Notes under the pieces: model-generated
The model's input: only the letters and a program-made list of their open reading frames with translations
Databases searched by the model: none
What the model was told of the DNA's origin: nothing
Made by a program: the position numbers and the translations under genes
Part shown: positions 45,455 through 62,989 of the stretch, one piece after another
Layout of the letters: every line of letters starts with the position of its first letter
How positions within the stretch are numbered: the first letter of the stretch is position 1
Source: an uncultured Candidatus Saccharibacteria bacterium
GTDB taxonomy: Bacteria > Patescibacteriota > Minisyncoccia > UBA6257 > JACOXY01
Assembly (NCBI GenBank): GCA_964357615.1
Contig: CAYHMC010000002.1
Location: 7,481-71,480, forward strand
DNA: 64,000 nucleotides
Reading direction: 5' to 3'

Positions 45455-45468
45455 GTCTTTAAAATATC

Positions 45469-45500
45469 ACCACCATAATACGGTGGTTATTTTTATACTT
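45469..45500 (+). terminator. Rho-independent terminator
   Basis: accacc-ATAATAC-ggtggt followed by TATTTTTATACTT. Confidence 0.4.
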
Positions 45501-45561
45501 GACATAGTTTTTTAATCATTGTACTTTTACAAAAGTAAATGAATCACTTGGGAACCATACA

Positions 45562-45825: not shown

Positions 45826-45852
45826 ATGATGAGAAGTTTTAACCAATTTTGC

Positions 45853-45879
45853 ATTCGCTCTTATTAGGGCGAATTTTTA
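45853..45879 (+). terminator. Rho-independent terminator
   Basis: attcgc-TCTTATTAGG-gcgaat followed by TTTTT. Confidence 0.4.
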
Positions 45880-45895
45880 TTATAACTTATAACTA

Positions 45896-47728
45896 TTAAC
45901 GCACTACAACACAATTTCCCAAAACCAATACATCCATTTTTGTTCTAAGAAAACAATCAATGGCTTCTTGTGGTTTATTCACAATCGGTTCATTTTCATT
46001 AAAAGAAGTATTAAGTAGCATAGGCACGCCAGTTATTTCTCTAAAAGCATTAATTAAATTCCAATAAACTGGGTTTTCTTTTTTAGATACCGTTTGCAAA
46101 CGCCCAGTCCCATCGTTGTGAGTAACGGCGGGAATTTTTAATCTCATATCTTCTTTTATCTCGTAAACTTTTTCCATAAATGGCACCGGATAAGTTTGAG
46201 CAAAATATTCTCCAACATATTCTTCTAAAATTGATGGAGCAAATGGCCTAAAAGATTCTCGTTTTTTAATTTTTAAATTTAAAATATCTTTCATATCTGC
46301 GCGAGCAGGATTTGCCAAAATACTTCTATTACCTAATGCTCTGGGCCCCCATTCAGTTCTACCTTGAAACCAACCTACAACATTACCATCTGCCAAATAC
46401 TGGGCAGTTTCTCTATATAATTCATCTTCAGATAAAACCTTATACGCCAAATTGTTTTCTTTCAGCGCAAATTCAATTTCACCTAAATGATACTCCGGAC
46501 CCCAGTATGAATGCGACATAACAAAAGGCTCTCCTGGTTTTCTAATGCTATTTCTATGCTCCACATCTACTCCATCAACATTTATAAAGCGCCTACTATT
46601 ATTTAAAATTTGATACCAAACATAATAAGCTGCACCCAACGCTCCACCTGCATCATATCCTGCTGGCTGGATAAATACTTCCTTGAAAGAGGTATGCGTA
46701 AATATTTTTCCATTAGCCAAACTATTTTGAGCAGTTCCCCCGGCAAAGCAAATATTTTTACTTTCTGTTTCTTTTTGTAGTTTATTTAAAATGCCTAAAA
46801 AAACTTCTTCATATAGCGCCTGCGCGGATGCGGCAATGTTTTTATGTTTTTCCGTAAGTTCTTCATTTTCTTTTCTTGCTGGCCCCAGCAAAACTTCAAG
46901 CTCACTTGAATACAATGGGCTAAGGTCAGGATTTCCGCCCTCCCACGACATCTGAACCTCTCCCTTACTATGCAGAAAATAATCCAAGTTAAGCTTAAAA
47001 AATCCACTAGAATCTATAGTCACAATTTCTTTCATCTCTTTTAAATATTCTGGTTTTCCAAATGCGGCAAGACCCATAATTTTATATTCATCTCCAAATC
47101 TCCAAAAACCCAAATATTGTGTAATGGCTGTATAAAAAAATCCAATTGAATGCGGGTAGTTTAAGCTTCCGGTTACTTCAATTTTATTATCCAATCCCTT
47201 ACCCCACATTGCACTTGTAAAATCTCCCATGCCATCCAAAGACAAAACTGCAGAATCTTTAAAGGGTGAAACAAAAAAAGCACTAGAGAGGTGTGCTCTG
47301 TGGTGCTCTACATTATAAAAGATAGCTTTAATTTCTGATGCACGAACACTTAGCGAATTTGCCAATTCTTCTTTTATTCCGGAAAGCTTTCTTTTATTTA
47401 CAAATCTATTCCAAATATAACTTAGGCTTGGTCTGGTTTTTAATATAAACCAAATTTTTTTCCAGTAATTTGCTTTTGGGTCTCGCGAGACAGCAATATG
47501 GTCAATGTCTTGGATTCTAATTCCGGCATATCCGAGACAAAATTTTATTGACTCACTTGGAAATCCAGCCCAATGTTTTATGCGTCTAATACGCTCTTCT
47601 TCTACGGCCGCAATTAATTTACCGTCTTTTATGAGACAGGCCGCTGAATCTGCATGATATGCATTTATACCAAGAATATACATCCCGTTAGAAATAGTAC
47701 GCAGACGCTTGTTGCGTTCTGTGTACAA
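45896..47728 (-). CDS. Carbamoyltransferase (NodU/CmcH/NovN/TobZ family)
   Basis: 610 aa. The N-terminus MYILGINAYHADSAACLIKDGKLIAAVEEERIRRIKHWAGFP matches the family consensus ILG.N..HD.AA.L..DG....A.EEER..R.KH. A C-terminal YrdC-like carbamoyl-adenylate domain is expected from the length. Confidence 0.85.
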   Translation of the reverse strand: MYTERNKRLRTISNGMYILGINAYHADSAACLIKDGKLIAAVEEERIRRIKHWAGFPSESIKFCLGYAGIRIQDIDHIAVSRDPKANYWKKIWFILKTRPSLSYIWNRFVNKRKLSGIKEELANSLSVRASEIKAIFYNVEHHRAHLSSAFFVSPFKDSAVLSLDGMGDFTSAMWGKGLDNKIEVTGSLNYPHSIGFFYTAITQYLGFWRFGDEYKIMGLAAFGKPEYLKEMKEIVTIDSSGFFKLNLDYFLHSKGEVQMSWEGGNPDLSPLYSSELEVLLGPARKENEELTEKHKNIAASAQALYEEVFLGILNKLQKETESKNICFAGGTAQNSLANGKIFTHTSFKEVFIQPAGYDAGGALGAAYYVWYQILNNSRRFINVDGVDVEHRNSIRKPGEPFVMSHSYWGPEYHLGEIEFALKENNLAYKVLSEDELYRETAQYLADGNVVGWFQGRTEWGPRALGNRSILANPARADMKDILNLKIKKRESFRPFAPSILEEYVGEYFAQTYPVPFMEKVYEIKEDMRLKIPAVTHNDGTGRLQTVSKKENPVYWNLINAFREITGVPMLLNTSFNENEPIVNKPQEAIDCFLRTKMDVLVLGNCVVVR

Positions 47729-47821: not shown

Positions 47822-48685
47822 TTATATTTTACTTTTGGTTAATTTTTTAATTCTTAATTCATATATTTTTGCATCAACTAAAAATCTATACCAAAATCCC
47901 TGCAAAAAATGCCATATAAGGCCTGGAATTCCATCTAAGACACCCAATCTAATTATATAACGATATTTCCAATATAAAAGCGCCCTAAAAAACGGTGGGA
48001 GCCTATAGTATAAATTATCTTTATACCATCTACGACGCTCTGGATCACTACCTTCACGATTTGCTGTTATTTCATTATTAGATTTTTCTAAAACTGAAGT
48101 AGCCTCTCTTTCTGCATACTTATTGTGCTTTTCTATCCAAATAGATAAATTTTTTCTATCGTGCTCTTCAAAATCATTTTCTAAATTTATGGTTTTTCCT
48201 TTTTTTAATATTACATGCTCATCCATAGCTCTATCTTCATATCTACCAGAATCTTTTCTCCATAAACGCAAAAACCAAGCTGGATAATAACCGCCATGCC
48301 TTATCCAGCGATTCATAAAATAAACCCTGCGCTTCATGTAGAATCCTGCGATATTCTCTTCTTTGAGTTTAGCTTCTGATTTAAAATGCTCCGCGATTTC
48401 TTTCCAAGTTTCCGGCAACATAATTTCATCAGAGTCCAATCTTAATATCCACTCATTATTAATTTGAACATTATCAAGCGCCCAATTAAATTGCTCAGCT
48501 TGATTTACAAACTTACGCTCAAAATAACGACACTCATACTTTTTTGCAATATCTATTGTTTTATCTGTACTAAAAGAATCAATAATAATAATTTCTTCTA
48601 CCCAATCAGAAATACTCAAAAGACTTTCGGCGATATTTAACTCTTCATTGTAGGTTAAAATAATTGCAGTAATTGGAAGTTTCAT
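47822..48685 (-). CDS. Glycosyltransferase family 2
   Basis: 287 aa. ITAIILTYNEELNI plus a DxD (DSDE). Confidence 0.75.
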   Translation of the reverse strand: MKLPITAIILTYNEELNIAESLLSISDWVEEIIIIDSFSTDKTIDIAKKYECRYFERKFVNQAEQFNWALDNVQINNEWILRLDSDEIMLPETWKEIAEHFKSEAKLKEENIAGFYMKRRVYFMNRWIRHGGYYPAWFLRLWRKDSGRYEDRAMDEHVILKKGKTINLENDFEEHDRKNLSIWIEKHNKYAEREATSVLEKSNNEITANREGSDPERRRWYKDNLYYRLPPFFRALLYWKYRYIIRLGVLDGIPGLIWHFLQGFWYRFLVDAKIYELRIKKLTKSKI

Positions 48686-48702: not shown

Positions 48703-49884
48703 TTACTTTCTTACTAATTTAGTATATTCTGTAATCCAATTCTTTACTATTTCATTCCAAACATACTTCTTAGAAACAAGCTCTCTGCCTCTTCGGCCAA
48801 GTTCTTTTCTTAATTTTTCATCATTAAAAAGTTCAAGAATTCCTTTTTTTAACTCATTTATGTTTTTTTTAATAACGATACCCGCTCCTGCTTCTCTAAT
48901 ATCTGACGCAATACCAACCGCATCAGTTACAACAACCGGCTTACCATAACTCATTGCCTCAACTAAAGAAATTCCAAAATTTTCCGAATAAGAGGGGGCA
49001 ACAAAAACATCTGATAATTTATAAGCAATCGCTTTATCGTTGTCACGCAAATCACCAGTAAAAATAATATTTTTAGCTAAGTGATATTTATCAACTAACT
49101 TTTCTATTTTATTTTTATAACCAAGTTCATCGCTATCGCTACCCACCACAACCAAAACGGCACTTGAAATTTCTTTCACAACTTCGGCAAATGCAGGAAT
49201 TAAAGTATCAAAACCTTTTTTCCAATTGAGTCGCCCGAGTGACAATAAAATTTTTGCATTTTCTGGAATGCCGAATTTTTGCTTAAAATTTATATCATCT
49301 TGGCTGTTTTGTGATAAATTAATATTCGCATCAATTCCATTGGGAATAATGATTGATTTTTTAAGTGGCAAACCAAGCTCTTTATACATATCTTCTTCGT
49401 ATTTTGTCGTAAAGTGAATTGCGGATGCACCTGACAGATTTTTTCCTTCAATACATTTAATGTAGCTTTTTTTTAACAATGAACTTTTTTTACTAATAAG
49501 CTCTGGAATTAAACTTCCACGTGGAGAAATAATATAAGGTTTATTAAGTTTCTTAGAATACTTTGCGCCCAAATAAGAAGCCGATAAAAATACGGATGTT
49601 ATATGAACTAAATCAAAATTTTTTATATTTTCTGATAGAGCATTTTTTAATTCTTTTGAATAAAACCAACTGCGAGGGAAAGAACTCTTAAAGTAATTTA
49701 TCTTAACTCCATCTATAATGTCCATTTTTACTGGTAAGTTGTTAGAACCATCAATATTTGTTGTATAAACCGTGACCTCAACTCCATCCTTAGCTAATCC
49801 TTTATTTAACTCGTGGACACTATAAATAGGACCGCCATAGCGGTAAGCAGGTAGATATGTTGGAACAATATGAAGAATCCTCAT
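48703..49884 (-). CDS. Glycosyltransferase family 4
   Basis: 393 aa GT-B. The C-terminal E-x7-E region is ENFGISLVEAMSYGKPVVVTDAVG. Its start overlaps the upstream stop by 1 nt. Confidence 0.8.
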   Translation of the reverse strand: MRILHIVPTYLPAYRYGGPIYSVHELNKGLAKDGVEVTVYTTNIDGSNNLPVKMDIIDGVKINYFKSSFPRSWFYSKELKNALSENIKNFDLVHITSVFLSASYLGAKYSKKLNKPYIISPRGSLIPELISKKSSLLKKSYIKCIEGKNLSGASAIHFTTKYEEDMYKELGLPLKKSIIIPNGIDANINLSQNSQDDINFKQKFGIPENAKILLSLGRLNWKKGFDTLIPAFAEVVKEISSAVLVVVGSDSDELGYKNKIEKLVDKYHLAKNIIFTGDLRDNDKAIAYKLSDVFVAPSYSENFGISLVEAMSYGKPVVVTDAVGIASDIREAGAGIVIKKNINELKKGILELFNDEKLRKELGRRGRELVSKKYVWNEIVKNWITEYTKLVRK

Positions 49885-51035
49885 TAAAATAATTTATTGT
49901 ATTCTACGATCATTCTCTTTGCGTATTCTTCTGGTGTATATTGCTTTGCTTTTTCTAAGGCATTTAACCCCATAGAGTTAACTTTATCTGGATGATTATA
50001 AAAATACAATATTTTTTCTTTTAAAGCCTCAGTATCTCTAATTGGAATAATAAATCCTTCTTTGCCATCTTCTAAAACTTCAGAAGCGCCGACATTTTGA
50101 GTAACTATGACCGGAAGTGCCGCCCGCATAGCCTCAATTACCACCATTCCAAAACCATCGTCAATTGAAGGCAAGATACAAATACTAGATTTTTCATATA
50201 ATTTTATCAAGTCGTCATCGCTTATGTGATGACTAATAATTTCTAAGTTAGGAATCTTTTTGTATTCAATAAACTCATTGGGAATTTCACCTTTAACTAT
50301 TAACTTCGCATTTTGCAGTCCAAGTTCCTTCCATGCTCTAAGTAAATATATTAAACCTTTTCTGTAAAAATTTCCGCTTACACAAAATACCGTAAAAACT
50401 TCTGGGTATTTTACTGGAATTTTTCTAAACGGAACATCTTTTTCATTACATAAAGGAACTTTGATTATCTTTGATGGTGAAATACCTCTTTTAATAAAAC
50501 TTTTTTTCGTATATTCTGATGGGACTGAAATAAAGTCAGCTAAATCATATTCTCTCTTCATTCGTTCATAAACTTCATTAGAAGTTATATCTATTTTTTT
50601 ATTTAAGAGCAAAGATTTTTCTTGCCTAATAAGTTCTTCCTGCTCATCTATATGAGGACAAGCCCTCTCAACCAAAGTAACTGCGCCCATTTTTTTTGCT
50701 TTTTTTAATGACTTTTCACAAAATCCACTATAACCAGTAAACACCCATTTATCTCCAGGTTTTTTTAAAATTGCAGAAACCCAATTATCAAAAAAACTAG
50801 TGATAAAATTATCTGAGAATAAATTTCCATAATGACTATTAATATACTTAACTGCACCCAAAAACCAAAAACTTTTAATTTTTGAACTTGGAACTTTATA
50901 CGAGGTTAATTTAAATTTAGGATAAGTGGTATATACCTTATCTAAAAAATTTTCATTATTTAATCCCTCGGCTAATCGAAGCGCATGATACTTGCTGTGT
51001 ACTGCTATTGTTGATTTAATTTTTTCTAACTCCAT
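49884..51035 (-). CDS. Glycosyltransferase family 4
   Basis: 383 aa. DGFGMVVIEAMRAALPVIVTQNVGASE is a GT4-type motif. Confidence 0.75.
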   Translation of the reverse strand: MELEKIKSTIAVHSKYHALRLAEGLNNENFLDKVYTTYPKFKLTSYKVPSSKIKSFWFLGAVKYINSHYGNLFSDNFITSFFDNWVSAILKKPGDKWVFTGYSGFCEKSLKKAKKMGAVTLVERACPHIDEQEELIRQEKSLLLNKKIDITSNEVYERMKREYDLADFISVPSEYTKKSFIKRGISPSKIIKVPLCNEKDVPFRKIPVKYPEVFTVFCVSGNFYRKGLIYLLRAWKELGLQNAKLIVKGEIPNEFIEYKKIPNLEIISHHISDDDLIKLYEKSSICILPSIDDGFGMVVIEAMRAALPVIVTQNVGASEVLEDGKEGFIIPIRDTEALKEKILYFYNHPDKVNSMGLNALEKAKQYTPEEYAKRMIVEYNKLF

Positions 51036-51050: not shown

Positions 51051-51971
51051 TTACTTAGAGGATTTTATATTAATCAAAAAACCCTCCCACTCGCCAAAGA
51101 CTCTCGCCGCCTCTTGAACTATATGAGCAAAATAGAATGGAAGAAAATCCTTAATTTTTCTACTTGAATGCTTGGTGATATTAAAAACATAAAGTGCAGC
51201 TGGAATAATCGTGATAAATCTAATGATAAATACTAAATCTTTGATTATTAATTTAATAAAAAGACCTAAAAGAGATTTGTTATCCATAAAATACAGCTTT
51301 AGAGGACCAAATCTCCCTCTAGCTTTCCTTGTATTCCAAAATTCTTTTAAATTATCTGGTTGTGGGTGCAGAACAACAATTTTCGGATCATAAACTTTTT
51401 TATATCCGGCCTCTGTAAGTTTTTTACCAAGAACCCAATCTCTACAAAATCTCGCAGGATAAGAGGGTCCAAACATACCAAGCTCAATAGCAACTTTGCG
51501 CCTACAAGAAAATGCTTCTGCATAATACATATCCGATCGTTCTGGTGGATGTTCCGCAATATGAAGCGCACCGGAATATCTAGAAAATAAACTATTATGA
51601 TTGTAATCTGGTATTCGACTATCAACCAAAACCCAATCGGCGCCCTCATTATATTTTTCATTTAATTTTTCCAAAAAATCTTTTGGTGGCCTAACATCGG
51701 CATCAGCATTTATTATAATATCGCCAGTCGAACTCTGAATTCCCAAATTCACCGCCTCACAGCACCCCTCACCTTTTCCTCTGATTAACTTTACGCCACG
51801 AGATTCAAATTCTTTAACAATTTCTGGGGTTCTGTCGGTTGAGTCATCAACAATAATAATTTCTTTATTATCATAATTAAAATCAAGAAAAGCCTCGATT
51901 GTTTTTCGAATATCTTTTTCTTCATTAAACGAAGGTGTAATTATGCTAAATTTTAACTTTTGTTCAGACAC
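51051..51971 (-). CDS. Glycosyltransferase family 2
   Basis: 306 aa. FSIITPSFNEEKDI, a DDS motif, and C-terminal TM helices. Confidence 0.8.
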   Translation of the reverse strand: MSEQKLKFSIITPSFNEEKDIRKTIEAFLDFNYDNKEIIIVDDSTDRTPEIVKEFESRGVKLIRGKGEGCCEAVNLGIQSSTGDIIINADADVRPPKDFLEKLNEKYNEGADWVLVDSRIPDYNHNSLFSRYSGALHIAEHPPERSDMYYAEAFSCRRKVAIELGMFGPSYPARFCRDWVLGKKLTEAGYKKVYDPKIVVLHPQPDNLKEFWNTRKARGRFGPLKLYFMDNKSLLGLFIKLIIKDLVFIIRFITIIPAALYVFNITKHSSRKIKDFLPFYFAHIVQEAARVFGEWEGFLINIKSSK

Positions 51972-52837
51972 AGTTTTTGAATATTTGATAATTTTTCATT
52001 TGGAACGGCTAGAATATTGTAAGAAGTTTTTTCTTCAGTTTTATCTTCAATTAAGAGCAATCCGCCCCTAAGCACAAGATACAAGACATATTCTTTAGAG
52101 TCAAAAAATGCTCGCATATCCTGCCATTTTGAATTAGAATGATTCCAATTTTCCAGGTTATATTCAAATATCACATAAGGGCGATATTTTTTTATACATT
52201 CAATCGCTCCTTCTATAACAGGAAAGTCACTTCCTCTGGTGTCAATTTTAATAAAATTCAATTTATTAAGTTTTTCCTGAATAGCAATTTCGTCCAATGT
52301 ATAAACTGATACATCAATTTTTTCTTTATCTAGTTTTGGCAATTCATAAAGACTAGAGGTTCCTTTATCATTTAAATCGCTATTATGTACATATAGAGAT
52401 GTTTGTCCATGATTACGCGACAGAGCATATTCAAAAACTTTGATATTTTTAAATTGATTAATTTCAATATTTTCTTTTAAACGCAAAACACTGACTGGGT
52501 CTGGATCAAAGGCAAGAACCTTACCGCTTTGTTCAACCAACTTTCCCATTATTAAAGTGTGAGTTCCAATATTGGCGCCAACATCAACTACGACATCACT
52601 CTCACCAATAACATTTTTCATTAAATCTATTACCCACTTTTCATAATAACCTTGAAAAAATAATTCCCATTCAACATAAGACGAAGTATCAATATTGATT
52701 TTAAGATTACCATCATAATTCATTACAGTTTTAATTTTAAATTTACCTGGACGAAAAATTAGCTTCAATATTCTTTGAGTTCCTCTAGGATAAAATCTTC
52801 TAGTAAAAAAAGCGATTATTTTTGCAACTTGAAACAT
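51953..52837 (-). CDS. FkbM-family SAM-dependent methyltransferase
   Basis: 294 aa. VVDVGANIGTHTL is the FkbM signature (VxDxGANxG). Confidence 0.75.
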   Translation of the reverse strand: MFQVAKIIAFFTRRFYPRGTQRILKLIFRPGKFKIKTVMNYDGNLKINIDTSSYVEWELFFQGYYEKWVIDLMKNVIGESDVVVDVGANIGTHTLIMGKLVEQSGKVLAFDPDPVSVLRLKENIEINQFKNIKVFEYALSRNHGQTSLYVHNSDLNDKGTSSLYELPKLDKEKIDVSVYTLDEIAIQEKLNKLNFIKIDTRGSDFPVIEGAIECIKKYRPYVIFEYNLENWNHSNSKWQDMRAFFDSKEYVLYLVLRGGLLLIEDKTEEKTSYNILAVPNEKLSNIQKLCLNKS

Positions 52838-52841
52838 TTAA

Positions 52842-53954
52842 CTATAATAAGCTTGCCTTAAGAGTACCGACAACAAAAGCCAATTCTTCTCCGGAAAGAT
52901 TGGGACCACTGGGTAAATAGAAGCCATTTTTGGCTATTTTATTTGCAACCGGACATTCATCTTCGCTTGTCCATCCTTTTTTTATAAAAATTTCTTGCAT
53001 ATTATAAGGAACAAATGCTTCTCGTGTTTCAATGCCATTGTCTCTCAATGATTTAGTAACTTTTTCACGACTTCCTTCTTGACTACCGCGCAAAACAATA
53101 TGAAACATCCAATAAACATTTTTTGCGTAGGATTTTTCTGGTGGAAGCTGAATCTCATCAATATTTTTAAGGCTTTCCATATATTTACCCGCGATACTTC
53201 GCTTAGCATTTATAATTTTTTCAATCTTACTTAACTGTGAAACACCAACTGCTGCTTGTAGGTTTGTCATTCTATAATTAAACCCAATTGCCTTGTGCAT
53301 ATACTTATTTTTGTCACCAAAAGCCAACGCCTTTAAAGAACGAGCTTTATCTGCATATTCTTTATTGTTTGTTATTAACATTCCGCCCTCTCCAGTTGTA
53401 ATAATTTTATTTGCATAAAAACTAAAACAACCAATGTCTCCGAGCGATCCAACTTTTTTCCCCTTGTATTCTGCGCCGTGAGCTTCAGCCGCATCTTCAA
53501 TCACAAAAAGATTATGTTTTTTTGCAATTTCAAGAATTGGGTCCATATCTACGGGATGACCATAAACATGCACAACCATTATTGCTTTAGTATTTTTTGT
53601 TATCTTAGCTTCGATTAGTTTTGGATCAATATTTAATGTATCTTCTTCAATATCAATGGGAACTGGCTTAGCTCCCTCATAAATTACAGAAAAGAAAGAA
53701 GCCATATTTGTGAATGTAGCAACAATAACCTCGTCGCCAGGACCAATTCCCAAAGTTACAATGGCCAAATGAAGTGCTGTGGTTCCACTTGTTGTTGAAA
53801 TGCCATATTTTGCTCCACAATAAGATGCAAATTTATCTTCAAATTCACCAATAAATTTTCCAAAATTTCCTGAAATTTCGGATGATTGCATAGCTTCTAG
53901 CACCAACTTGCTATCCTCGCTATCTATATTTGGGCTTGAAACAGATATTTTCAT
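52842..53954 (-). CDS. DegT/DnrJ/EryC1/StrS-family PLP-dependent sugar aminotransferase
   Basis: 370 aa. Contains SFYANKIITTGEGGML, the PLP-lysine motif SF...K..TTGEGG. Confidence 0.9.
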   Translation of the reverse strand: MKISVSSPNIDSEDSKLVLEAMQSSEISGNFGKFIGEFEDKFASYCGAKYGISTTSGTTALHLAIVTLGIGPGDEVIVATFTNMASFFSVIYEGAKPVPIDIEEDTLNIDPKLIEAKITKNTKAIMVVHVYGHPVDMDPILEIAKKHNLFVIEDAAEAHGAEYKGKKVGSLGDIGCFSFYANKIITTGEGGMLITNNKEYADKARSLKALAFGDKNKYMHKAIGFNYRMTNLQAAVGVSQLSKIEKIINAKRSIAGKYMESLKNIDEIQLPPEKSYAKNVYWMFHIVLRGSQEGSREKVTKSLRDNGIETREAFVPYNMQEIFIKKGWTSEDECPVANKIAKNGFYLPSGPNLSGEELAFVVGTLKASLL

Positions 53955-54030: not shown

Positions 54031-54990
54031 ATGCAAACAGAAGAAATACAAAATAAGCGTGTTTGTGTCATTGGTGGAGCTGGCTTTTTAGGAAGTCATC
54101 TTGTAGATTACTTGGTGGACGAAAGAAACTGCTATGTTTTAGTGTTGGACAACTTAATAAGTGGACTAAAAAAACATATCAATAAAAAGGCTGAATTTGC
54201 TTGGTTTGATATTCGAGAAGATGACCACGAACTAATAGGTATATTAAAAAGCCATCAGATTGAGTATGTTTTTAATTATGCCGCCGAACCATATATTCCA
54301 GAATCATTTGAACGACCAAAGCATTTTTTCATAATAAATGCGGTTTCTGTATTGAATGTTCTAAATGCCTGCCAAAAATCTGGTGTTAAAAAAATTCTTC
54401 AGGTAAGCTCAGCTGAAATTTATGGCGACATGAAAGGAAAAATTAAAGAATCAGATATGGTAGAGGCTCACTCTACATACGGAGTATCTAAACTTGCTGC
54501 TGATGGCCTAGTTCAGGTGCGATGGAGGGAAGGAAATGTTCCAGCAATTGCAATGCGCCAATTTAACTGTGTTGGCGAAAGAGAAACTCACGAATATGTT
54601 ATTCCGGAAATAATTGATCAACTGAGTAATGGCCCTACTGTAAAATTGGGTAATAATAGCTTTAGGGATTTTCAATACGCAGGAGACGCAGTAAAGATGG
54701 CTGTTGAATTATTAGAAAAAGGAAAGCCAGGAGAAGTTTACAATATGGGATCCGAGGACGGAATAAAAATATATGATTTAGCCAACCTTATTGGAAAATT
54801 AATGGGACACGAGAAAATTGAAATCATTACAGATCAAAAAAGAGTTCGCCCGTGGGAAATTTGGCACCTTCAATCTGATAACACGAAACTTTATTCAGTA
54901 ATTTCATACAGGCCAAAAGTTAATTTAGAAGAAGCACTAAAGAAAACCATAAAATACTTTCACGAAAATAATAAAACTTGGGATTTTTAA
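54031..54990 (+). CDS. NAD-dependent sugar epimerase/dehydratase/reductase (extended SDR)
   Basis: 319 aa. It has GGAGFLGSHLVDYL and a YxxxK triad (YGVSK). Confidence 0.8.
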   Translation: MQTEEIQNKRVCVIGGAGFLGSHLVDYLVDERNCYVLVLDNLISGLKKHINKKAEFAWFDIREDDHELIGILKSHQIEYVFNYAAEPYIPESFERPKHFFIINAVSVLNVLNACQKSGVKKILQVSSAEIYGDMKGKIKESDMVEAHSTYGVSKLAADGLVQVRWREGNVPAIAMRQFNCVGERETHEYVIPEIIDQLSNGPTVKLGNNSFRDFQYAGDAVKMAVELLEKGKPGEVYNMGSEDGIKIYDLANLIGKLMGHEKIEIITDQKRVRPWEIWHLQSDNTKLYSVISYRPKVNLEEALKKTIKYFHENNKTWDF

Positions 54991-55033: not shown

Positions 55034-57541
55034 TTATTCCGCAACTATTTGACTCACATTAATTACATATACCTGCCTAGTACCCTCATGTACTGAATCG
55101 ATACAAATCTTATCTCCCGTTAAATTAAATCTAGGGTGTAAATCAGCTCTTAGCCCACTAGAATCCCAATTCTCATTAATTCCAAATTCTTTGCTTGGCA
55201 ACGAGTAAAATTTTCCTACTTCTACTAAATTATTAGTATTAATATTATATAGTAAGAGTTTTCTAAGTTTTTCTTTCCCTGCGTATGTATCAGAAAGTAT
55301 CCAATTCTTGCTCGGATGAAAGGTGGCATGACCATCCTCTGTTAATTTGCCAATGCCTATTTTTTTAAAGTCTTTGGAATTATTTTTAAACAATAAAAAT
55401 GCATCTCCGCTAATTTTCTGTCTTATTCCAGAGTTTTTAAATAATGCATGATAAATTGGTACTAATAATTTTCTAATATAATTTTTCTTGACCAAAGATG
55501 TTGAAACTCTAGGTGGCCTACCCCAAACTAGTAAATCACCATAATTGCTCCAGCCAAAATGAGATACCATTCCAGTATCCAGAAGCAGAATAAGATTTTT
55601 ACCATCAGAATCAGCTACATAAAGCCTACTGTACATTCCTCCATTTTTTGTTTCCCATCTATGCAAAAAAGAAAATTTTGTCCCAGTCTTATTAAAAGTA
55701 ATATGATCTACCCAATGCTCCCCCTCTTTCATTGATTCAATATTTTGATTTTTTATGAGATCTGCGAGAGAAATAATCAATTTAGAACTATTGTCTCTAA
55801 ATTCAATTCTAAAAATTCCATCATTATCCAAAGATTTTTTTTCAATCGATGAATTGCTATTTATTTTATATCCATATCCCTCTCGTAATCTATCTATTCT
55901 AGAAAAACTAAGTGATAGCGCAAATTGACCATCTGGATGAACCGCATAAACAGGGTATGGGATATTTTTTTTATAATTGGATAATATATCTTGTATAACT
56001 GAAACAAACCTACCACCTTGATAGTCGTTGTAAATAATTTTGCTATTAAAATCTGGCCCTAGCCACTCTAGCATACATCCCTGTTGCCAATTCCATGCTC
56101 TAGTTTCTGCTACTTTATAAAATTTATTTGATTCGTTAACTTTAATATATCCAATATCTAATATATCGTTTGATGTCGGTAATCTATCAATAAAATTTGC
56201 TTCTTCGGTAAGTAAATACTTGCCGTCTCTACTCCATGGACTTTTATCATAGTAACCAAAAAAATGATGTTTTCCCGAAGTACTAAATTCAATATTTGCT
56301 AATGGGTTTAAATTACTTTCATTGCCGTTTGAGACACTAGAAATAGCTTCAAACATACCATCAATATCTTCTTTGTAGCTCCATTTACTTACTGCATTTC
56401 TTGCATTATTTTTCATCTCACTTAATTTTACGGGATCCTTTATAAACATTTCCATATATTGTGAAATCATCTTCACATCCCCAATCTCATGAATTACACC
56501 CGATTCGGTTTGTTTAACTAAATCAGGAGCAGTTCCAACGCCACCAGAAAGAATAGAAGCAATACCAAAGTTCATAGCTTCATTCACTTGCTTAGGTGAT
56601 GGGTCAAATTCTGACGGAAGCAACAAAACATCGGAGACTGAATAATATATAGGCAATTCTGATTGATTTTTAAATCCGTAAAAATATATGTTTGGTAAAT
56701 TGTGATCTAAAACATACTGCTCAAGCAAAGCTTTTTCTTCTCCATCACCAATAAACAAAATATTAAACTCAAATTTATTCAAAAGCATTTCGGCGGCCTT
56801 TAAAATATCTAAAGTGCGTTTTCTTTTAATAAATTTGCCTACGAAAATAAAAGTTAAAATCTCACTCTTTTGAATGCCTATGGATTTTTTTAGTGAATCT
56901 TTTGTAAATTTTAATTTTTCGTAATATTCATTAAAATAATTATTATCTACAGCACAAGGAAGAGAGAATAATTTGCTATCTTGAACTCCATAATAAAGAA
57001 AATATTCCTTATTAAGTTGATAACTATAAAGAAATGCTTGGATATTTTTAAAAAGTGTTTTTAAAATTGTCTTTTTAATAGTCTTTTTAATAACTCCACT
57101 TTTTTTACCCAAATCTGCCTCTCCTCTTAAAATTATTTTAACACCAGTATACCAACGAGATAAAAAAACCAGCCAAGAAGTCGCCGTCGTATATCCATGA
57201 ACTAAAACTGCATCATAATTATTCTCTTTTAATTCCTTGATTATTTGTGGATTTATTTGACCAAAAAACGAAGGCCCTGGCTTTAGACTATAATTTTTTA
57301 AAAGGTTATATTTATAGCCATCAAGCAGTGGAACATCCCATTTTATGTCAGTATTTAATTCCTTATCAAAGCCCTTCTTAGAAATTCCAAAATCCCATAA
57401 GTAGTAAACCATCACCTCAAAACGAGAATCCTTGGCTAAGGCTTTAAAAAGTGGCGACTGATACTGAATTGGATGAGAAGCGACAATAGCTAATTTATAT
57501 CTCTTCATGCTTTTTGAGGACTTGGGTGAGAAAGATACCAA
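55034..57541 (-). CDS. Fusion protein: N-terminal GT4 glycosyltransferase + C-terminal ~430-aa TolB/WD40-like beta-propeller-type domain
   Basis: 835 aa. Residues 1-400 are GT-B (family 4-like, EFDPSPKQVNEAMNFGIASI). The C-terminal half has repeated HPDGQFALSL, DSDGKNLILL, DGHATFHPSKNW and HPRFNLTGDKICIDSV segments, reminiscent of TolB-like propeller blades. Confidence 0.55.
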   Translation of the reverse strand: MVSFSPKSSKSMKRYKLAIVASHPIQYQSPLFKALAKDSRFEVMVYYLWDFGISKKGFDKELNTDIKWDVPLLDGYKYNLLKNYSLKPGPSFFGQINPQIIKELKENNYDAVLVHGYTTATSWLVFLSRWYTGVKIILRGEADLGKKSGVIKKTIKKTILKTLFKNIQAFLYSYQLNKEYFLYYGVQDSKLFSLPCAVDNNYFNEYYEKLKFTKDSLKKSIGIQKSEILTFIFVGKFIKRKRTLDILKAAEMLLNKFEFNILFIGDGEEKALLEQYVLDHNLPNIYFYGFKNQSELPIYYSVSDVLLLPSEFDPSPKQVNEAMNFGIASILSGGVGTAPDLVKQTESGVIHEIGDVKMISQYMEMFIKDPVKLSEMKNNARNAVSKWSYKEDIDGMFEAISSVSNGNESNLNPLANIEFSTSGKHHFFGYYDKSPWSRDGKYLLTEEANFIDRLPTSNDILDIGYIKVNESNKFYKVAETRAWNWQQGCMLEWLGPDFNSKIIYNDYQGGRFVSVIQDILSNYKKNIPYPVYAVHPDGQFALSLSFSRIDRLREGYGYKINSNSSIEKKSLDNDGIFRIEFRDNSSKLIISLADLIKNQNIESMKEGEHWVDHITFNKTGTKFSFLHRWETKNGGMYSRLYVADSDGKNLILLLDTGMVSHFGWSNYGDLLVWGRPPRVSTSLVKKNYIRKLLVPIYHALFKNSGIRQKISGDAFLLFKNNSKDFKKIGIGKLTEDGHATFHPSKNWILSDTYAGKEKLRKLLLYNINTNNLVEVGKFYSLPSKEFGINENWDSSGLRADLHPRFNLTGDKICIDSVHEGTRQVYVINVSQIVAE

Positions 57542-58518
57542 TCGTAGGTAATTTTTAGTCCTTGTTCAAGTGATACTTCTGGTTTCCACCCAGTAAGTTC
57601 TTGGAGTTTTGATACATTTGCCAGTCTTCTCTTTGCGCTTCCTGGAAGAGATGGTTTTATATCAAGATTTTTAGGTCGCCACTCTGCAACTTTAAACATT
57701 TTTTCGGCAAGATTATTAATTCCGATTTCCTCAAAATCGCCTATATGAACTGTCTCAATCGGCTGTGAATCAGTTTTCTTAGAATCCATAAGCATCGTCA
57801 TGGCCCGAACTGCGTCCTCTATATAGCAAAATGTTCTCGTGTCATATGCACCATAAATTGGAAATGGATCAATTTTCGCAGCAATGCGCTCACAAAAATC
57901 TGGAATAACATGACCGTTATATCCAGCACGCGGACCATAAAAATTATGGGGTCGCACTAAAAGAGCGCGAAAATTATATTTTTGAGCATAGTGAATAACA
58001 AAAAGTTCACCTATAAGTTTTGTAGATGCATATGACCATCTTGGATTATACGGGTCTTCTATAACCAGTGGCACATTCTCTGGAGTAGGAATTGGTGGGT
58101 CTCCGAAACCACTAAAACCTCCGGCATACGCTTCATTAGATGATGTAAAACAAAACTTTCCTTGACTATTTTCTTTTCTAAACCAATCCAAAATATGAAT
58201 AAGCGAAAGTGTATTCACGCGCAATACTTCATGTGGTTTCTCATAAAACACACGAGTACCATTCATTGCAGCCAAATGATAAACATGATCATATCCACTA
58301 CCAAGTTGTTTTAACGAATCCGGTTCAGTTAAGTCGCAATTAATAAACGACACGCGAGAATCTAGAAGGAGATTTTTGAAGTCGTCATCCATTCGGCCTC
58401 GCGTTAGATTGTCGGCTAATACTAGATGACTTTCGTTATCACTCGATTTAAGTATAAATCTTGCAAGGTGATGTCCAATAAAGCCGGCTCCGCCTGTTAT
58501 TAAAATTTTCTTAGACAT
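57505..58518 (-). CDS. NDP-sugar 4,6-dehydratase / UDP-glucuronate decarboxylase-like extended SDR
   Basis: 337 aa. It has KILITGGAGFIGHHL and a YASTK catalytic motif. It overlaps the upstream gene by 37 nt. Confidence 0.75.
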   Translation of the reverse strand: MSKKILITGGAGFIGHHLARFILKSSDNESHLVLADNLTRGRMDDDFKNLLLDSRVSFINCDLTEPDSLKQLGSGYDHVYHLAAMNGTRVFYEKPHEVLRVNTLSLIHILDWFRKENSQGKFCFTSSNEAYAGGFSGFGDPPIPTPENVPLVIEDPYNPRWSYASTKLIGELFVIHYAQKYNFRALLVRPHNFYGPRAGYNGHVIPDFCERIAAKIDPFPIYGAYDTRTFCYIEDAVRAMTMLMDSKKTDSQPIETVHIGDFEEIGINNLAEKMFKVAEWRPKNLDIKPSLPGSAKRRLANVSKLQELTGWKPEVSLEQGLKITYDWYLSHPSPQKA

Positions 58519-58533: not shown

Positions 58534-59745
58534 CTAAACATTTTTAGGCAAAAAATTCCACATATCTACAAATTGAATATTTGGATAATCCTTTGGATTT
58601 ATTTCGCGATATTCTGGGTGTGGTGTCGCCAAAATTACAATATTTGAGTTTTTTAAGACATGGTCTAATGACACAAAAGATGCGTCACTCATATAAGGAT
58701 CTGTACAAAGAACACTTCTACATTCTACATGAGCAATTTTTCTTAATTTGAAAGATAAAGAATCTCTATGGTCGTCACTTTCCGCTTTGTATGCCATACC
58801 CAAAATACCAATTGTTTTTTCTTTTAACTCGGCCGAATGTTCGCGTTTCAATTTACCAATTAAATGATTTACCAATCCCTCATTCACCAACATTGCTGCG
58901 TGACCTAGCCAAAAATTGTTGTTCGTAAAAGCGGCTAATTGCATAGTATCTTTTAATAAACATGGACCAGCAGCAAATCCAGGCGAAGGTAAATCTTGTG
59001 TTCTCGGATAATTGTGCTTCATGGCTTTTTCAATACTGCTATATTCTAACCCATGTGATTCAGCAATCATAAAAAACTGATTGGCTACGGCAAATCTTAT
59101 ATAACGCCAAGAATTTGTAAATAATTTTGCAAGCTCTGCTTCCATTGCAGAAACAGCAACAATATCAGACTTAGTTGATTTTTGAAATAACTTTGTCACC
59201 TCGTTTCGAGTTTCGTCATCAAAGGCAGAAATTATTTGTGGCAGAACTTTTAAATCTTCGATTGCGCGACCCTGCAAAATTCTTTCAGGGCAAAATGAAA
59301 GTTTTACTTTTTTATTTTTTGATTCAAAATATTGCTGAACTTTTTCAGTGGTACCAGGATAAACTGTACTCCTTAAAATTATAATCTGGCCGTCTCTAAA
59401 GTGATTGATGTATTTATCAATTACCCTTGTAATTCCCCCAAATTGCGGACTAAGATATTCGTCAATTGGAGTTCCAATAACAATTACAACAAACTTAGAA
59501 TCTGCAATTGATTCTGGGGAACTCGAGGTAACAAGCGAACCACTCTTTATAGCAGTTCCAAGCGCCTCATCTCCATCCTTCTCCTTAAATGGGAATTTGC
59601 CAGACTGAATTTTATTCAAGGCTTCTTGATTTACATCAAATAAAACTGTTTTTACTCCGGCATTTGCGAATACTACACCCAAAGGAAGGCCCACATGACC
59701 AGCCCCACCAACAATACAAAGTTCATATTTCGTTTGATTTGTCAT
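58534..59745 (-). CDS. Nucleotide-sugar dehydrogenase (UDP-glucose/GDP-mannose dehydrogenase family)
   Basis: LCIVGGAGHVGLPLGVVFA is the N-terminal NAD-binding motif. The length is typical. The start was trimmed to MTNQTKYE. Confidence 0.8.
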   Translation of the reverse strand: MTNQTKYELCIVGGAGHVGLPLGVVFANAGVKTVLFDVNQEALNKIQSGKFPFKEKDGDEALGTAIKSGSLVTSSSPESIADSKFVVIVIGTPIDEYLSPQFGGITRVIDKYINHFRDGQIIILRSTVYPGTTEKVQQYFESKNKKVKLSFCPERILQGRAIEDLKVLPQIISAFDDETRNEVTKLFQKSTKSDIVAVSAMEAELAKLFTNSWRYIRFAVANQFFMIAESHGLEYSSIEKAMKHNYPRTQDLPSPGFAAGPCLLKDTMQLAAFTNNNFWLGHAAMLVNEGLVNHLIGKLKREHSAELKEKTIGILGMAYKAESDDHRDSLSFKLRKIAHVECRSVLCTDPYMSDASFVSLDHVLKNSNIVILATPHPEYREINPKDYPNIQFVDMWNFLPKNV

Positions 59746-59794
59746 GGTATTGATTCTAATTCTTAGAATCAAAAAAGTCAAAAAATATTTTTAG

Positions 59795-61732: not shown

Positions 61733-62989
61733 TTAACGAGGTTTTTTTAATCTACAAAAACAATCAAGCATCATAATTATATCAATTGGAAAGCGATAGC
61801 GCGGGTCGGCATTTGCAATAACAAAAGGCAAGAAATAAAGAAAAATTACTAAAAACATCAGGAGGTTGTCTCTATCTAAAAAATTTTTGCGAGTTCTAAA
61901 TACGATAAAAAGCCAAACAAAGATTGGTGTCGCCATTAATATTTTAACAATTCTTTTTAGCCCTTCTGTAGTTATCCATGAAAAATCGGGAACTTGGTGG
62001 TATCCTGGCCTAAACAAGGTAAATATTTTTATTCCGGTTAACTTTATGTATTCAATTGGATGTGCTTTTATAAAATCAAATGCGAGCTGTTTGTAAGTTT
62101 CGGGTGGAAAAATTAGTCGCTCTTCAAATTTATTAATTGCCGTATATCCCCTAGCACCTAGAGCATCTCTCAAAGAATTTTCACCGCTAAAATCTGAAAG
62201 TAAGTACTTGCTAGAATATTCATTAGAACCTGCAAATAGATTATAATAGCCGTGATTTGGAAAATAAAAAGGTTTTTGCTTAACTGCAGTATTAATAATT
62301 ACAAAAACAAACAATGAGATAAATAAAAATAATAAAGATTGATTAAAATAGTTTCTTGATATGCTTTCACTTTCTTTATTTTTTATTCTGTTATTTTTAT
62401 TAAAAATTAAAACTCCATATTGAAATATTTTTGGAAAATAAACAATTAGCAATACAGGCAATACAAGCAATATGGTATTCATTCGAACTACAAAAAGCAG
62501 ACCGGATATTACACCCAAAACCAAAATGCCAAGAAAATTTCTTTCTCGTTCCACATACAGACAAGCTACAAGCAAGCCAAGTAATAGCAAAACTGTAATA
62601 TTGCCATCATGAACTCTCCATATATTAAGAAAAAGAACTGGGTGAATGGCAGTAATTAAAATACCAAAAAATAATTTATGACCAGTAACGCCTCTAAATG
62701 TCAAAAGCAAAAGAGCACACAATAAAATAAATACGTAGATTAGAGACTGACAAACTGGAATTAAATTTATGCCACCATGCGCGATGCATAACCCCAAAAA
62801 ACCAGAATATCCAATTGGCATAAAGTTAGATGTTATGGCTCCCACTTCTGCAAATTCATTGGCGTCATTATACAATAATGCCACAAAGAAAGAACTATCT
62901 ATGTCTTGCTTTAAAGACGCAAGGACAAAAACTACAACCAGAATTACACCAATTAGCATCAACACCTTTGGAATCGTAAGTTGGCTCAT
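61733..62989 (-). CDS. Polytopic membrane protein: GT-C-fold glycosyltransferase (ArnT/PMT-like) or Wzy-like polymerase
   Basis: 418 aa with about 10 TM helices. There is an acidic motif in the first extracytoplasmic loop (YNDANEFAEVG). It sits next to the polyprenol-P sugar synthase and GT9 genes. Confidence 0.5.
   Translation of the reverse strand: MSQLTIPKVLMLIGVILVVVFVLASLKQDIDSSFFVALLYNDANEFAEVGAITSNFMPIGYSGFLGLCIAHGGINLIPVCQSLIYVFILLCALLLLTFRGVTGHKLFFGILITAIHPVLFLNIWRVHDGNITVLLLLGLLVACLYVERERNFLGILVLGVISGLLFVVRMNTILLVLPVLLIVYFPKIFQYGVLIFNKNNRIKNKESESISRNYFNQSLLFLFISLFVFVIINTAVKQKPFYFPNHGYYNLFAGSNEYSSKYLLSDFSGENSLRDALGARGYTAINKFEERLIFPPETYKQLAFDFIKAHPIEYIKLTGIKIFTLFRPGYHQVPDFSWITTEGLKRIVKILMATPIFVWLFIVFRTRKNFLDRDNLLMFLVIFLYFLPFVIANADPRYRFPIDIIMMLDCFCRLKKPR

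What the first reader, a model, noticed from the sequence alone, without database searches (positions are those of the whole stretch)
55034..57541. GT4 glycosyltransferase fused to a large beta-propeller-like C-terminal domain
This is a single 835-aa ORF. The first ~400 aa form a GT-B glycosyltransferase. The remaining ~430 aa carry 4+ repeats of the (H/D)PDG/DSDGK...hydrophobic-strand pattern typical of TolB/PD40-like propeller blades. GT-B enzymes are normally stand-alone, so a covalently attached propeller is unusual. It could dock the transferase onto a protein acceptor or a polymer. It is embedded in the glycan island and overlaps the next gene by 37 nt.
Basis: seen in the sequence. Interest (0 to 1): 0.55.

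Follow-up and report, generated by a model that had tools for sequence, protein, structure and literature searches.

The report
Glycosyltransferase fused to lyase-like propeller enzyme
One gene in a surface-sugar gene cluster joins a sugar-adding enzyme to a seven-bladed propeller that looks like a second, uncharacterised sugar-modifying enzyme (a distant cousin of pectin-fragment lyases), not a passive docking module.

Summary
The ORF is real. It lies on the minus strand and most likely starts at the ATG at 57508, giving 824 aa and a 4-nt ATGA overlap rather than 37 nt. Residues 1-393 are a GT4 glycosyltransferase. Residues 398-823 fold with high confidence (pLDDT 92.8) as a seven-bladed beta-propeller.

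The fusion is not a frameshift artefact:
- An identical 824-aa protein is in NCBI.
- Two orthologues at 58-59% identity share the architecture.
- In other close relatives the two halves are separate adjacent genes.

The propeller has no Pfam model. Its family holds at least 6,080 clusters at 50% identity, across bacteria and archaea. The best structural match is PL22 oligogalacturonate lyase (3PE7), and profile-profile comparison gives 87% probability over the full length. Family-invariant residues align with the lyase's Arg217, His242, His353 and His355. Forty-three positions are at least 90% conserved, so this is probably a catalytic domain, not a TolB-like docking domain.

The family is fused independently to GT4 (both orders), GT2 (both orders), GT32, CE4, HAD and secreted GH2.

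In this clade a sugar 6-dehydrogenase and an SDR enzyme always sit upstream. I infer acid/base chemistry on a uronic-acid residue, either elimination or C5 epimerisation. That chemistry is untested.

The parts
55034..57508 (-). Whole gene: 824 aa plus stop, from the ATG at 57508
   Evidence: Identical to the NCBI protein P0121, 824 aa.
57505..57508 (-). ATGA start/stop overlap with the upstream SDR gene (translational-coupling type junction)
   Evidence: sequence reads 'gcATGAagag'. The upstream ORF ends at 57505.
56330..57508 (-). GT4 (GT-B) glycosyltransferase domain, aa 1-393
   Evidence: PF00534 at 87.6 bits and PF13692 at 57.4 bits. Closest solved relatives are BshA-type GT4 enzymes 2jjm and 3mbo. 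It is 58-62% identical to stand-alone GT4 genes of L002, L004 and L005.
56318..56371 (-). Junction/linker, aa ~380-397. It contains no Met, so the fusion is obligatory.
   Evidence: Junction alignment and three-frame translation. Linker length varies among the three fused orthologues. P0122 keeps the ancestral propeller Met in frame.
55040..56317 (-). Seven-bladed beta-propeller, aa 398-823. It belongs to a large unnamed family that is remotely homologous to PL22.
   Evidence: AF2 pLDDT 92.8. Foldseek top hit is 3pe7 at E 3e-11. hhalign against a PL22 profile gives prob 87%, E 3.9e-6, 347 columns. Family size is 6,080 representatives.
55403..55516 (-). Helical insertion inside blade 5 (aa 665-702), absent from PL22
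   Evidence: DSSP helices 277-307 of the domain model. Removing it lets the global hhalign run end to end.
55136..55627 (-). Span holding the candidate active-site residues: R628, H650, H727, D789, H791 (domain numbering R235, H257, H334, D396, H398)
   Evidence: Alignment to YeOGL R217, H242, (H287), H353, H355. These residues are 95-100% conserved in 260 family members.
57505..58518 (-). Upstream SDR nucleotide-sugar epimerase/dehydratase-family gene, syntenic partner
   Evidence: Pfam Epimerase and GDP_Man_Dehyd. Solved relatives include the 6zl6 set (UDP-glucuronate 4-epimerase by my recollection), UXS1 and WbgU. The gene is conserved just upstream in L001, and 1-3 genes upstream in L002, L004 and L005.
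58534..59781 (-). Nucleotide-sugar 6-dehydrogenase (makes a uronic acid), syntenic partner
   Evidence: TIGR03026 at 266 bits, above its cut-off. The closest solved structure is UDP-ManNAcA dehydrogenase 4r16, E 1.7e-48, then Cap5O. The gene is conserved in all related loci.

Best explanation
The gene encodes a soluble, cytoplasmic, two-enzyme polypeptide of a cell-surface glycan pathway, in a genome that looks like Patescibacteria.

The N-terminal GT4 domain transfers a sugar onto the growing glycan, which is probably lipid-linked.

The C-terminal seven-bladed propeller is a second catalytic domain. It belongs to a large unnamed family that is a remote homologue of PL22 oligogalacturonate lyase. 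One His/Asp/Arg-rich pocket is inferred at the central face of the propeller. It keeps counterparts of the lyase's charge-neutralising Arg, its His base and part of its metal site.

The two activities act on the same intermediate. This explains why they are adjacent genes in relatives and fused here.

In this clade the partner genes directly upstream make a nucleotide-activated uronic acid, probably a 2-acetamido uronic acid. The most likely chemistry is metal-assisted proton abstraction at C5 of that uronate, leading to beta-elimination (trimming or unsaturation) or to C5 epimerisation.

Shown: the fusion, the fold, the remote homology, the conserved residues, the synteny and the recurrent fusions. 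Inferred: catalytic activity, substrate, reaction type and order of action.
For: Fusion is real:
- An identical NCBI protein and two 58-59% identical full-length orthologues exist.
- Synteny of dehydrogenase, SDR gene and fusion is conserved in a Jorgensenbacteria MAG.
- The halves are separate and adjacent, or separated by a methyltransferase, in L002, L004 and L005. They are 52-62% identical to the window's halves.
- Fused and split states are interleaved in the identity matrix.

Fold and homology:
- AF2 pLDDT 92.8.
- Foldseek top hit is 3pe7, E 3e-11, TM 0.61/0.70.
- hhalign gives 80% against the single YeOGL sequence and 87% against a PL22 profile, co-linear over 347 columns.

Active site:
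- R235/H257/D396/H398 align with YeOGL R217/H242/H353/H355. Those YeOGL positions were verified in the 3pe7 sequence.
- 43 positions are >=90% conserved in both 131 stand-alone and 129 GT-fused members.
- The conserved clusters sit at or near the first, innermost strand of each of the seven blades (DSSP, my blade assignment).

Carbohydrate link: independent fusions exist to GT4 (either order), GT2 (either order), GT32, CE4, HAD and signal-peptide GH2.

Cytoplasmic location: no TM or signal segment was found.

Uronate link: a 6-dehydrogenase is next to an SDR gene in all five related loci.

Precedent: other seven-bladed propeller lyases use Arg plus His/His/Asp machinery on the anterior face (PMC10951650).
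Against: - No activity was tested.
- Sequence identity to PL22 is only 12-20%, and Pfam PF14583 does not hit.
- The lyase's metal ligand Gln350 has no conserved counterpart. His353 is Asp here.
- The His287 counterpart (H334) is placed only to within about 3 residues, because of an insertion.
- The residue roles in YeOGL come from my memory of Abbott et al. 2010. I could not retrieve the paper.
- Across the wider family the uronate link fails. In 33 species-level loci with adequate flanks, none has the dehydrogenase within 5 kb and only 7 have a glycosyltransferase.
- The Ruthenibacterium capsule locus with a propeller-GT4 fusion shows no dehydrogenase within 10 kb.
- The full-length model did not resolve how the two domains face each other (pTM 0.59).
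- A lyase acting inside the cytoplasm on a biosynthetic intermediate has no well-known precedent.
Confidence: 0.55

Rival explanations
1. The propeller is a non-catalytic docking or carbohydrate-binding module. It holds the GT4 domain on its acceptor, a polymer, a lipid-linked glycan or a protein.
For: - Beta-propellers often mediate binding. TolB and peptidase-gating propellers appear among the fold hits.
- Fusion to many different glycosyltransferase families would also suit a generic acceptor-holding module.
- No enzymatic test exists.
Against: - The 43 near-invariant positions are dominated by His, Asp, Arg, Tyr, Trp and Gln. They are the same in archaea, bacteria, stand-alone and fused forms. 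This is typical of a catalytic pocket, not of a binding surface for diverse acceptors.
- Some of these residues align with lyase catalytic residues.
- Most family members are stand-alone and not next to any glycosyltransferase.
- The blades are not sequence repeats of one another with one site per blade, as they are in propeller lectins.
Confidence: 0.2
2. The fusion is an artefact. A sequencing or assembly frameshift joined two adjacent, overlapping genes in this MAG.
For: In L002 and L004 the GT4 and propeller genes overlap by 17-44 nt in different frames. A single indel would therefore fuse them. Read support cannot be inspected here.
Against: - Three independent genomes carry a continuous fused ORF. 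They are 58-67% identical to one another, and their linkers have different lengths.
- The window's junction reads through cleanly and aligns with both the GT4 C-terminus and the propeller N-terminus.
- No stop or alternative-frame continuation is present.
- Fusions of this propeller with glycosyltransferases are common elsewhere.
Confidence: 0.03
3. The propeller is an enzyme, but its chemistry is unrelated to uronates. Examples would be a phosphodiesterase or pyrophosphatase acting on the lipid-diphosphate or nucleotide end, or a glycoside hydrolase or transglycosylase. The PL22 resemblance would reflect only shared ancestry of the scaffold.
For: - Many invariant arginines (R149, R218, R224, R235, R394, R400) would suit phosphate as well as carboxylate.
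- The dehydrogenase link is absent outside this clade.
- Fusions to HAD phosphatase and GH2 hint at other chemistries.
- Gln350 of the lyase metal site is not conserved.
Against: - The Arg/His pair that defines the lyase mechanism is exactly the part that is conserved.
- In all five loci of the window's clade a uronate-forming dehydrogenase is an immediate neighbour.
Confidence: 0.2

Closest known systems
PL22 oligogalacturonate lyase (Ogl; YeOGL PDB 3PE7, VPA0088 PDB 3C5M; Pfam PF14583)
   Same: - Cytoplasmic, seven-bladed PD40-type propeller of about 390-430 aa.
- Best fold match.
- Full-length co-linear profile alignment at 87% probability.
- Counterparts of Arg217, His242, His355 and (as Asp) His353 are invariant.
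   Different: - 12-20% identity, and no PF14583 hit.
- Gln350 is not conserved.
- A ~38-residue helical insertion sits in blade 5.
- There is a distinctive N-terminal HHFFGYYDKxPW motif and a WNWQQG motif.
- It sits in biosynthetic rather than pectin-catabolic clusters and is fused to a glycosyltransferase.
- No activity is known.
Other seven-bladed propeller polysaccharide lyases (PL42 FoRham1 7ESK; PL24/PL25 ulvan lyases)
   Same: Propeller scaffold with Arg charge neutraliser and His base/acid on the anterior face (PMC10951650). 7esk is among the fold hits (rank 18).
   Different: These lyases are metal-independent and secreted, and the fold match is weaker. No sequence-level link was tested.
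TolB / PD40 propellers
   Same: PD40-like blade motif. 26 of 60 family members give a PD40 repeat hit, usually in the last blade only.
   Different: By established knowledge, TolB is a six-bladed periplasmic binding protein with an extra N-terminal domain. TM-score is only about 0.38. The window protein itself gives no PD40 hit at E<=10.
Polysaccharide operon-encoded lyases and C5-epimerases (e.g. AlgL/AlgG of alginate, VexL of Vi antigen). From established knowledge, not tested here.
   Same: A uronate-directed lyase or epimerase is encoded with the synthase and glycosyltransferases of the same polymer. Lyases and C5-epimerases share the C5-deprotonation step.
   Different: Those enzymes are periplasmic, have beta-helix or alpha/alpha-toroid folds, and are not fused to a glycosyltransferase. 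Here the domain is cytoplasmic and covalently joined to the GT.
Propeller-GT4 and propeller-GT2 fusion proteins of Oscillospiraceae and other bacteria (e.g. Ruthenibacterium lactatiformans WP_302958836.1, annotated only as 'glycosyltransferase')
   Same: Same propeller family with the same conserved residues, fused to a glycosyltransferase in a capsule locus.
   Different: The domain order is opposite (propeller first). Propeller identity is 30-36%. There is an extra basic ~50-aa N-terminal extension, and no dehydrogenase is nearby.

Membership tests
GT4 glycosyltransferase (Pfam Glycos_transf_1, GT-B) | Match to PF00534/PF13692 above the gathering score | tested here: met
   87.6 bits against 26.4, and 57.4 bits against 27
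GT4 glycosyltransferase (Pfam Glycos_transf_1, GT-B) | E-x7-E motif in the C-terminal Rossmann domain | tested here: inconclusive
   The sequence is PSEFDPSPKQVNEAM (aa 308-322). The spacing is D-x7-E or E-x9-E, so the second Glu is present and the first is shifted.
GT4 glycosyltransferase (Pfam Glycos_transf_1, GT-B) | Two-Rossmann GT-B fold | tested here: inconclusive
   The full-length AF2 model has alternating beta/alpha elements but low confidence in aa 1-397. The solved relatives are all GT-B enzymes.
PL22 oligogalacturonate lyase (PF14583) | Match to the family profile | tested here: not met
   No PF14583 hit for the window protein or for any of 60 family members at E<=10. No phmmer or hmmsearch hit to 3pe7 or 3c5m.
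PL22 oligogalacturonate lyase (PF14583) | Seven-bladed propeller fold superimposable on 3PE7 | tested here: met
   Foldseek rank 1, E 3e-11, TM 0.61/0.70. hhalign prob 87%.
PL22 oligogalacturonate lyase (PF14583) | Catalytic His242 and Arg217 | tested here: met
   They align with H257 (H650) and R235 (R628), which are 97-100% and 95-100% conserved. Their roles in YeOGL are from memory.
PL22 oligogalacturonate lyase (PF14583) | Mn site His287, Gln350, His353, His355 | tested here: inconclusive
   H355 aligns with H398 and is conserved. H353 aligns with D396 (Asp). Q350 aligns with Leu/Met and is not conserved. H287 versus H334 is placed in the same blade, but the register is uncertain.
PL22 oligogalacturonate lyase (PF14583) | Beta-elimination of oligogalacturonate | not testable with these tools
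   Needs an enzyme assay
TolB / PD40 periplasmic propeller | Six PD40 blades, an N-terminal alpha/beta domain and a signal peptide | tested here: not met
   Seven blades. No PD40 hit in the window protein. No hydrophobic N-terminus. TM 0.38 to TolB.

The most novel reading that the evidence does not exclude
The propeller family is a new carbohydrate-active enzyme family. It has at least 6,080 clusters at 50% identity, occurs in bacteria and archaea, and has no Pfam model. It descends from the same stock as PL22. In its glycosyltransferase-linked members it would work in biosynthesis, inside the cytoplasm. There it would act as a uronate C5-epimerase or an 'editing' eliminase on the sugar just added by its partner transferase. 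This would create L-configured or 4,5-unsaturated acidic sugars in surface glycans of Patescibacteria, gut Oscillospiraceae and others.
Probability: 0.25. Interest if true: 0.75.

Novelty: new variant of a known kind. Interest (0 to 1): 0.5.

Why it matters
- If the propeller is catalytic, thousands of 'hypothetical proteins', and hundreds of proteins annotated only as 'glycosyltransferase', carry an unrecognised second enzyme. These include proteins in capsule loci of cultured human-gut bacteria.
- It would define a new CAZy-type family related to PL22.
- It could explain how unusual acidic sugars are made at the polymer or lipid-intermediate level.
- The repeated, independent fusions to four glycosyltransferase architectures give a ready-made functional hypothesis.
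- Cultured organisms are available for testing: Ruthenibacterium lactatiformans, Beggiatoa leptomitoformis and Methylotuvimicrobium sp. KM1.
- For genome annotation, the finding shows that the domain deserves its own profile.

Tried and rejected
- The plus-strand reading of the coordinates is full of stops. The gene is on the minus strand.
- Exact-sequence look-up of the window protein on contigs found nothing, although the protein is in the cluster database.
- Sequence searches of the propeller against PDB, both single sequence and profile, gave only noise.
- The full-length AlphaFold model was meant to test domain packing. The GT half was poorly modelled from a shallow, mixed alignment (pTM 0.59), so no conclusion on the interface.
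- I expected the wider family to sit next to uronate dehydrogenases or glycosyltransferases. It does not. The uronate inference is therefore restricted to the window's clade.
- A global hhalign with the blade-5 insertion left in failed (first run). It worked after the insertion was removed.
- Literature searches for propeller-glycosyltransferase fusions found nothing relevant, and I could not retrieve the YeOGL paper.
- A peptidase-gating propeller (S9 hits) was rejected because no peptidase domain is present.
Full report
**1. The observation**

The coordinates hold a single long ORF, but on the minus strand. The plus-strand translation is full of stops. The minus-strand translation is open for 835 codons.

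The TTG at 57541 is only the first possible start. Eleven codons downstream, an ATG at 57508 begins MKRYKLAIVASHP. It forms an ATGA overlap with the stop codon of the upstream gene, 57505..58518. The 824-aa product from this ATG is 100% identical over its full length to a protein already in NCBI (P0121). The reported 37-nt overlap is therefore an artefact of start choice, and the real overlap is 4 nt.

The two halves behave as follows:
- Pfam places Glycos_transf_1 at aa 218-371 (87.6 bits, cut-off 26.4) and Glyco_trans_1_4 at aa 219-358 (57.4 bits).
- The closest solved relatives of aa 1-393 are BshA-type GT4 enzymes.
- The last 431 aa have no Pfam, NCBIfam or PDB sequence match.

**2. The fusion is real, and the halves are split in relatives**

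A full-length search returned two orthologues with the same GT4-then-propeller order. P0122 (829 aa, a Candidatus Jorgensenbacteria MAG) is 58% identical, and P0123 (817 aa) is 59% identical, both over 99-100% of the length. They are 67% identical to each other.

The P0122 locus keeps the window's gene order: nucleotide-sugar dehydrogenase, SDR enzyme, then the fusion. FkbM methyltransferase, DegT aminotransferase, GT2, GT4 and GT9 genes follow further on.

- In L002/L003 and L004, a 393-401-aa GT4 gene sits immediately upstream of a 439-457-aa propeller gene. The two overlap by 17-44 nt in a different frame.
- In L005/L006 a methyltransferase gene lies between them.
- These separate proteins are 58-62% (GT4) and 52-55% (propeller) identical to the window's halves.

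The linker differs in length among the three fused proteins. P0122 still has the ancestral propeller Met in frame (HMDSFTL), which points to stop-codon loss. The window's linker has no Met, so the fusion is obligatory.

In the identity matrix, the GT4 half of fused P0123 is closer to the split L004 gene (80%) than to fused P0122 (73%). The window protein is the outlier. Fusion or fission therefore happened more than once. A sequencing frameshift in this one assembly cannot be formally excluded without reads, but it is very unlikely.

**3. What the C-terminal half is**

AlphaFold2, run on an alignment of 60 family members, gives pLDDT 92.8 and pTM 0.91. The model has 24 long strands that I group into seven four-stranded blades. 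N-terminal strands close the last blade, and a helical insertion (domain residues 277-307) sits in blade 5.

Foldseek against the PDB ranks oligogalacturonate lyase 3PE7 (PL22, with Mn) first: E 3e-11, TM 0.61/0.70, 12% identity. S9-peptidase propellers follow. TolB scores TM about 0.38. The PL42 lyase 7ESK is also listed.

I recovered the true 3PE7 and 3C5M sequences from a PDB search. The results of the profile comparisons were:

| Comparison | Probability | E-value | Extent |
|---|---|---|---|
| Family alignment vs YeOGL single sequence | 80% | 1.5e-5 | 347 columns |
| Family alignment vs 22-sequence PL22 profile | 87% | 3.9e-6 | 347 co-linear columns, nearly end to end |
| Global alignment after deleting the blade-5 insertion | 70% | 5e-6 | end to end |

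The family is therefore a remote homologue of PL22. It is not a member, because PF14583 matches neither the window protein nor any of 60 relatives at E<=10.

**4. It looks like an enzyme**

In YeOGL the residues I recall as catalytic are Arg217, His242 (base) and the Mn ligands His287, Gln350, His353 and His355. This is from memory of Abbott et al. 2010, because I could not retrieve the paper. The residues at those positions in the 3PE7 sequence are indeed R, H, H, Q, H, H.

The alignments map them as follows:

| YeOGL residue | Domain residue | Protein residue | Note |
|---|---|---|---|
| R217 | R235 | R628 | aligned |
| H242 | H257 | H650 | aligned |
| H353 | D396 | D789 | His replaced by Asp |
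| H355 | H398 | H791 | aligned |
| H192 | H209 | H602 | aligned |
| H287 | H334 | H727 | same blade and start of strand, register uncertain by about 3 residues |
| Q350 | none | none | no conserved counterpart |

I aligned 131 stand-alone and 129 GT-fused family members to the family HMM. Forty-three positions are at least 90% conserved in both groups. They include H205, H209, H223, R224, R235, H257, H334, D347, R394, D396, H398 and D411, together with many Tyr, Trp, Gln and Asn. The window protein keeps all but three of them: Q88E, R218K and W401F.

Each blade contributes a conserved cluster at or just before its innermost strand:
- blade 1: HHFFGYY
- blade 2: WNWQQG
- blade 3: PIY
- blade 4: HWxxH
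- blade 5: SHFxW
- blade 6: DGH
- blade 7: DLHPR

This arrangement implies one pocket around the central axis on one face. Seven-bladed propeller lyases have their Arg/His/His/Asp machinery on that face (PMC10951650). The geometric step is inference, because I could not access model coordinates.

**5. How large and how linked to glycans the family is**

An exhaustive HMM search of 1.84 billion representatives finds 6,080 proteins at E<=1e-3 and 2,027 at E<=1e-30. In species-representative genomes, more than 583 stretches encode a relative. They come from Patescibacteria, Planctomycetota, Chloroflexota, Verrucomicrobiota, Proteobacteria, Nitrospinota and Firmicutes, and from Aenigmatarchaeota, Bathyarchaeia and Thermoproteales.

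Most members are stand-alone proteins of about 380-450 aa. The fusions are striking:
- GT4-propeller: only P0121-P0123.
- propeller-GT4, about 800 aa: dozens of clusters.
- propeller-GT2, about 730 aa.
- GT2-propeller: P0225, P0343, P0383, P0403, and Methylotuvimicrobium sp. KM1 (L023).
- propeller-GT32: P0188, P0446.
- CE4 deacetylase-propeller: P0026.
- propeller-HAD: P0181.
- Secreted GH2-propeller and DUF4960-propeller proteins with signal peptides: P0364, P0363.

A propeller-GT4 protein of 805 aa occurs in cultured Ruthenibacterium lactatiformans (WP_302958836.1). It lies inside a Wzy-type capsule locus.

The wider family is not tied to glycan synthesis, however. Among 113 genes adjacent to stand-alone members, only 7 are GT4 and 3 are GT2. 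In 33 loci with at least 5 kb on both sides, 7 have any glycosyltransferase within 5 kb and none has the dehydrogenase.

**6. Context in the window**

The gene lies in a minus-strand glycan island running from about 42.9 kb to the end of the window. The island contains:
- GT4, 42870-44057.
- DUF362, 44069-45064.
- NodU-like carbamoyltransferase, 45896-47728.
- GT2-like gene, 47822-48685.
- Two GT4 genes, 48703-51035.
- GT2, FkbM methyltransferase and DegT aminotransferase, 51051-53954.
- An SDR gene on the plus strand, 54031-54990.
- The fusion.
- SDR gene, 57505-58518.
- Dehydrogenase, 58534-59781.
- GT2, GT9, a nine-TM protein without any family hit, and a C-methyltransferase.

The rest of the window is housekeeping: DnaE, ThrRS, GyrB and PrkA. 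GC content is about 34%.

The dehydrogenase passes the nucleotide-sugar dehydrogenase model. It is closest to solved UDP-ManNAcA dehydrogenases (4r16, Cap5O). The solved relatives of the SDR enzyme include the 6zl6 entry set, UDP-glucuronate decarboxylase and WbgU. By my recollection the 6zl6 set is a UDP-glucuronate 4-epimerase. In this clade, therefore, a uronic acid, probably 2-acetamido, is made by the two genes directly upstream of the fusion.

**7. Mechanism proposed**

The GT4 domain adds a sugar, most plausibly the uronic acid supplied by its upstream neighbours, to the cytoplasmic lipid-linked glycan. The propeller then acts on the same intermediate. It would use a metal/Arg-neutralised carboxylate and a His base, either to eliminate across C4-C5 or to invert C5.

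The protein has no TM or signal segment, so both steps are cytoplasmic. Fusion, or the overlapping gene pair in relatives, ensures 1:1 stoichiometry and hand-over of the intermediate.

The shown parts are the architecture, fold, homology, conservation, synteny and recurrent fusion. The inferred parts are catalysis, substrate and reaction type.

The main weaknesses are:
- The incomplete metal site.
- The absence of the dehydrogenase link outside this clade.
- The unresolved interdomain geometry.

**8. Comparison and verdict**

The protein works most like a PL22-type propeller enzyme attached to a GT4 transferase. It is a member of GT4. It is not a member of PL22 or of the TolB/PD40 family.

The docking-module reading is possible but less likely. 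The artefact reading is nearly excluded.

Novelty is a new variant of a known kind: a bifunctional glycosyltransferase plus modifying enzyme, and a distant PL22-like family without a name. Interest is moderate. The particular gene is one of many such fusions, but the family behind it is large, highly conserved, uncharacterised and testable.

Noticed in passing
window 61733-62989 (-): A 418-aa protein with about nine TM-like segments and no Pfam or NCBIfam hit, inside the glycan island. Unannotated 480-506-aa genes occupy a similar place upstream of the dehydrogenase in L001, L002 and L004. It is a candidate polymerase or flippase.
   Followed up: partly
window 18002-20317 (-): A 771-aa ORF with no Pfam family at E<=1e-3, among housekeeping genes.
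   Followed up: no
protein clusters of P0202 and P0167 (Oscillospiraceae / Ruthenibacterium propeller-GT4): Beside the 805-aa form, many members are 276-277-aa gene calls. One example is UYI82095.1, seen on 40 contigs. These may be truncated calls, pseudogenes or phase-variable genes.
   Followed up: no
P0264, P0202, P0145, P0190, P0209, P0188, P0181 N-termini: Propeller-first fusion proteins share a basic ~50-aa N-terminal extension (..FPxxKRxxKxxYQ..). It is absent from the window protein and from stand-alone members, and may be a membrane-association helix.
   Followed up: no
P0364 (1569 aa), P0363 (1614 aa): The same propeller family sits at the C-terminus of signal-peptide proteins that carry GH2 or DUF4960 domains. 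The module is therefore also used in secreted, apparently degradative enzymes.
   Followed up: partly
P0127, P0141, P0143, P0144, P0151, P0153, P0155, P0161, P0173: Relatives of the window's GT4 half are fused elsewhere to methyltransferase or PF02223 (thymidylate-kinase-like) domains. This GT4 lineage often carries an accessory enzyme domain.
   Followed up: no
window 41271-47728: The island also encodes a NodU-like carbamoyltransferase (45896-47728), a DUF362 protein (44069-45064) and a 536-aa protein with a GFO_IDH_MocA domain (41271-42881). Together with DegT and the dehydrogenase, these suggest a heavily modified amino-uronic acid sugar, possibly carbamoylated.
   Followed up: partly
L023 (Methylotuvimicrobium sp. 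KM1, NZ_CP173170.1, locus 8867-11113): A 748-aa GT2-propeller fusion in a complete genome of a named Methylotuvimicrobium strain. It could serve as an experimental handle.
   Followed up: no
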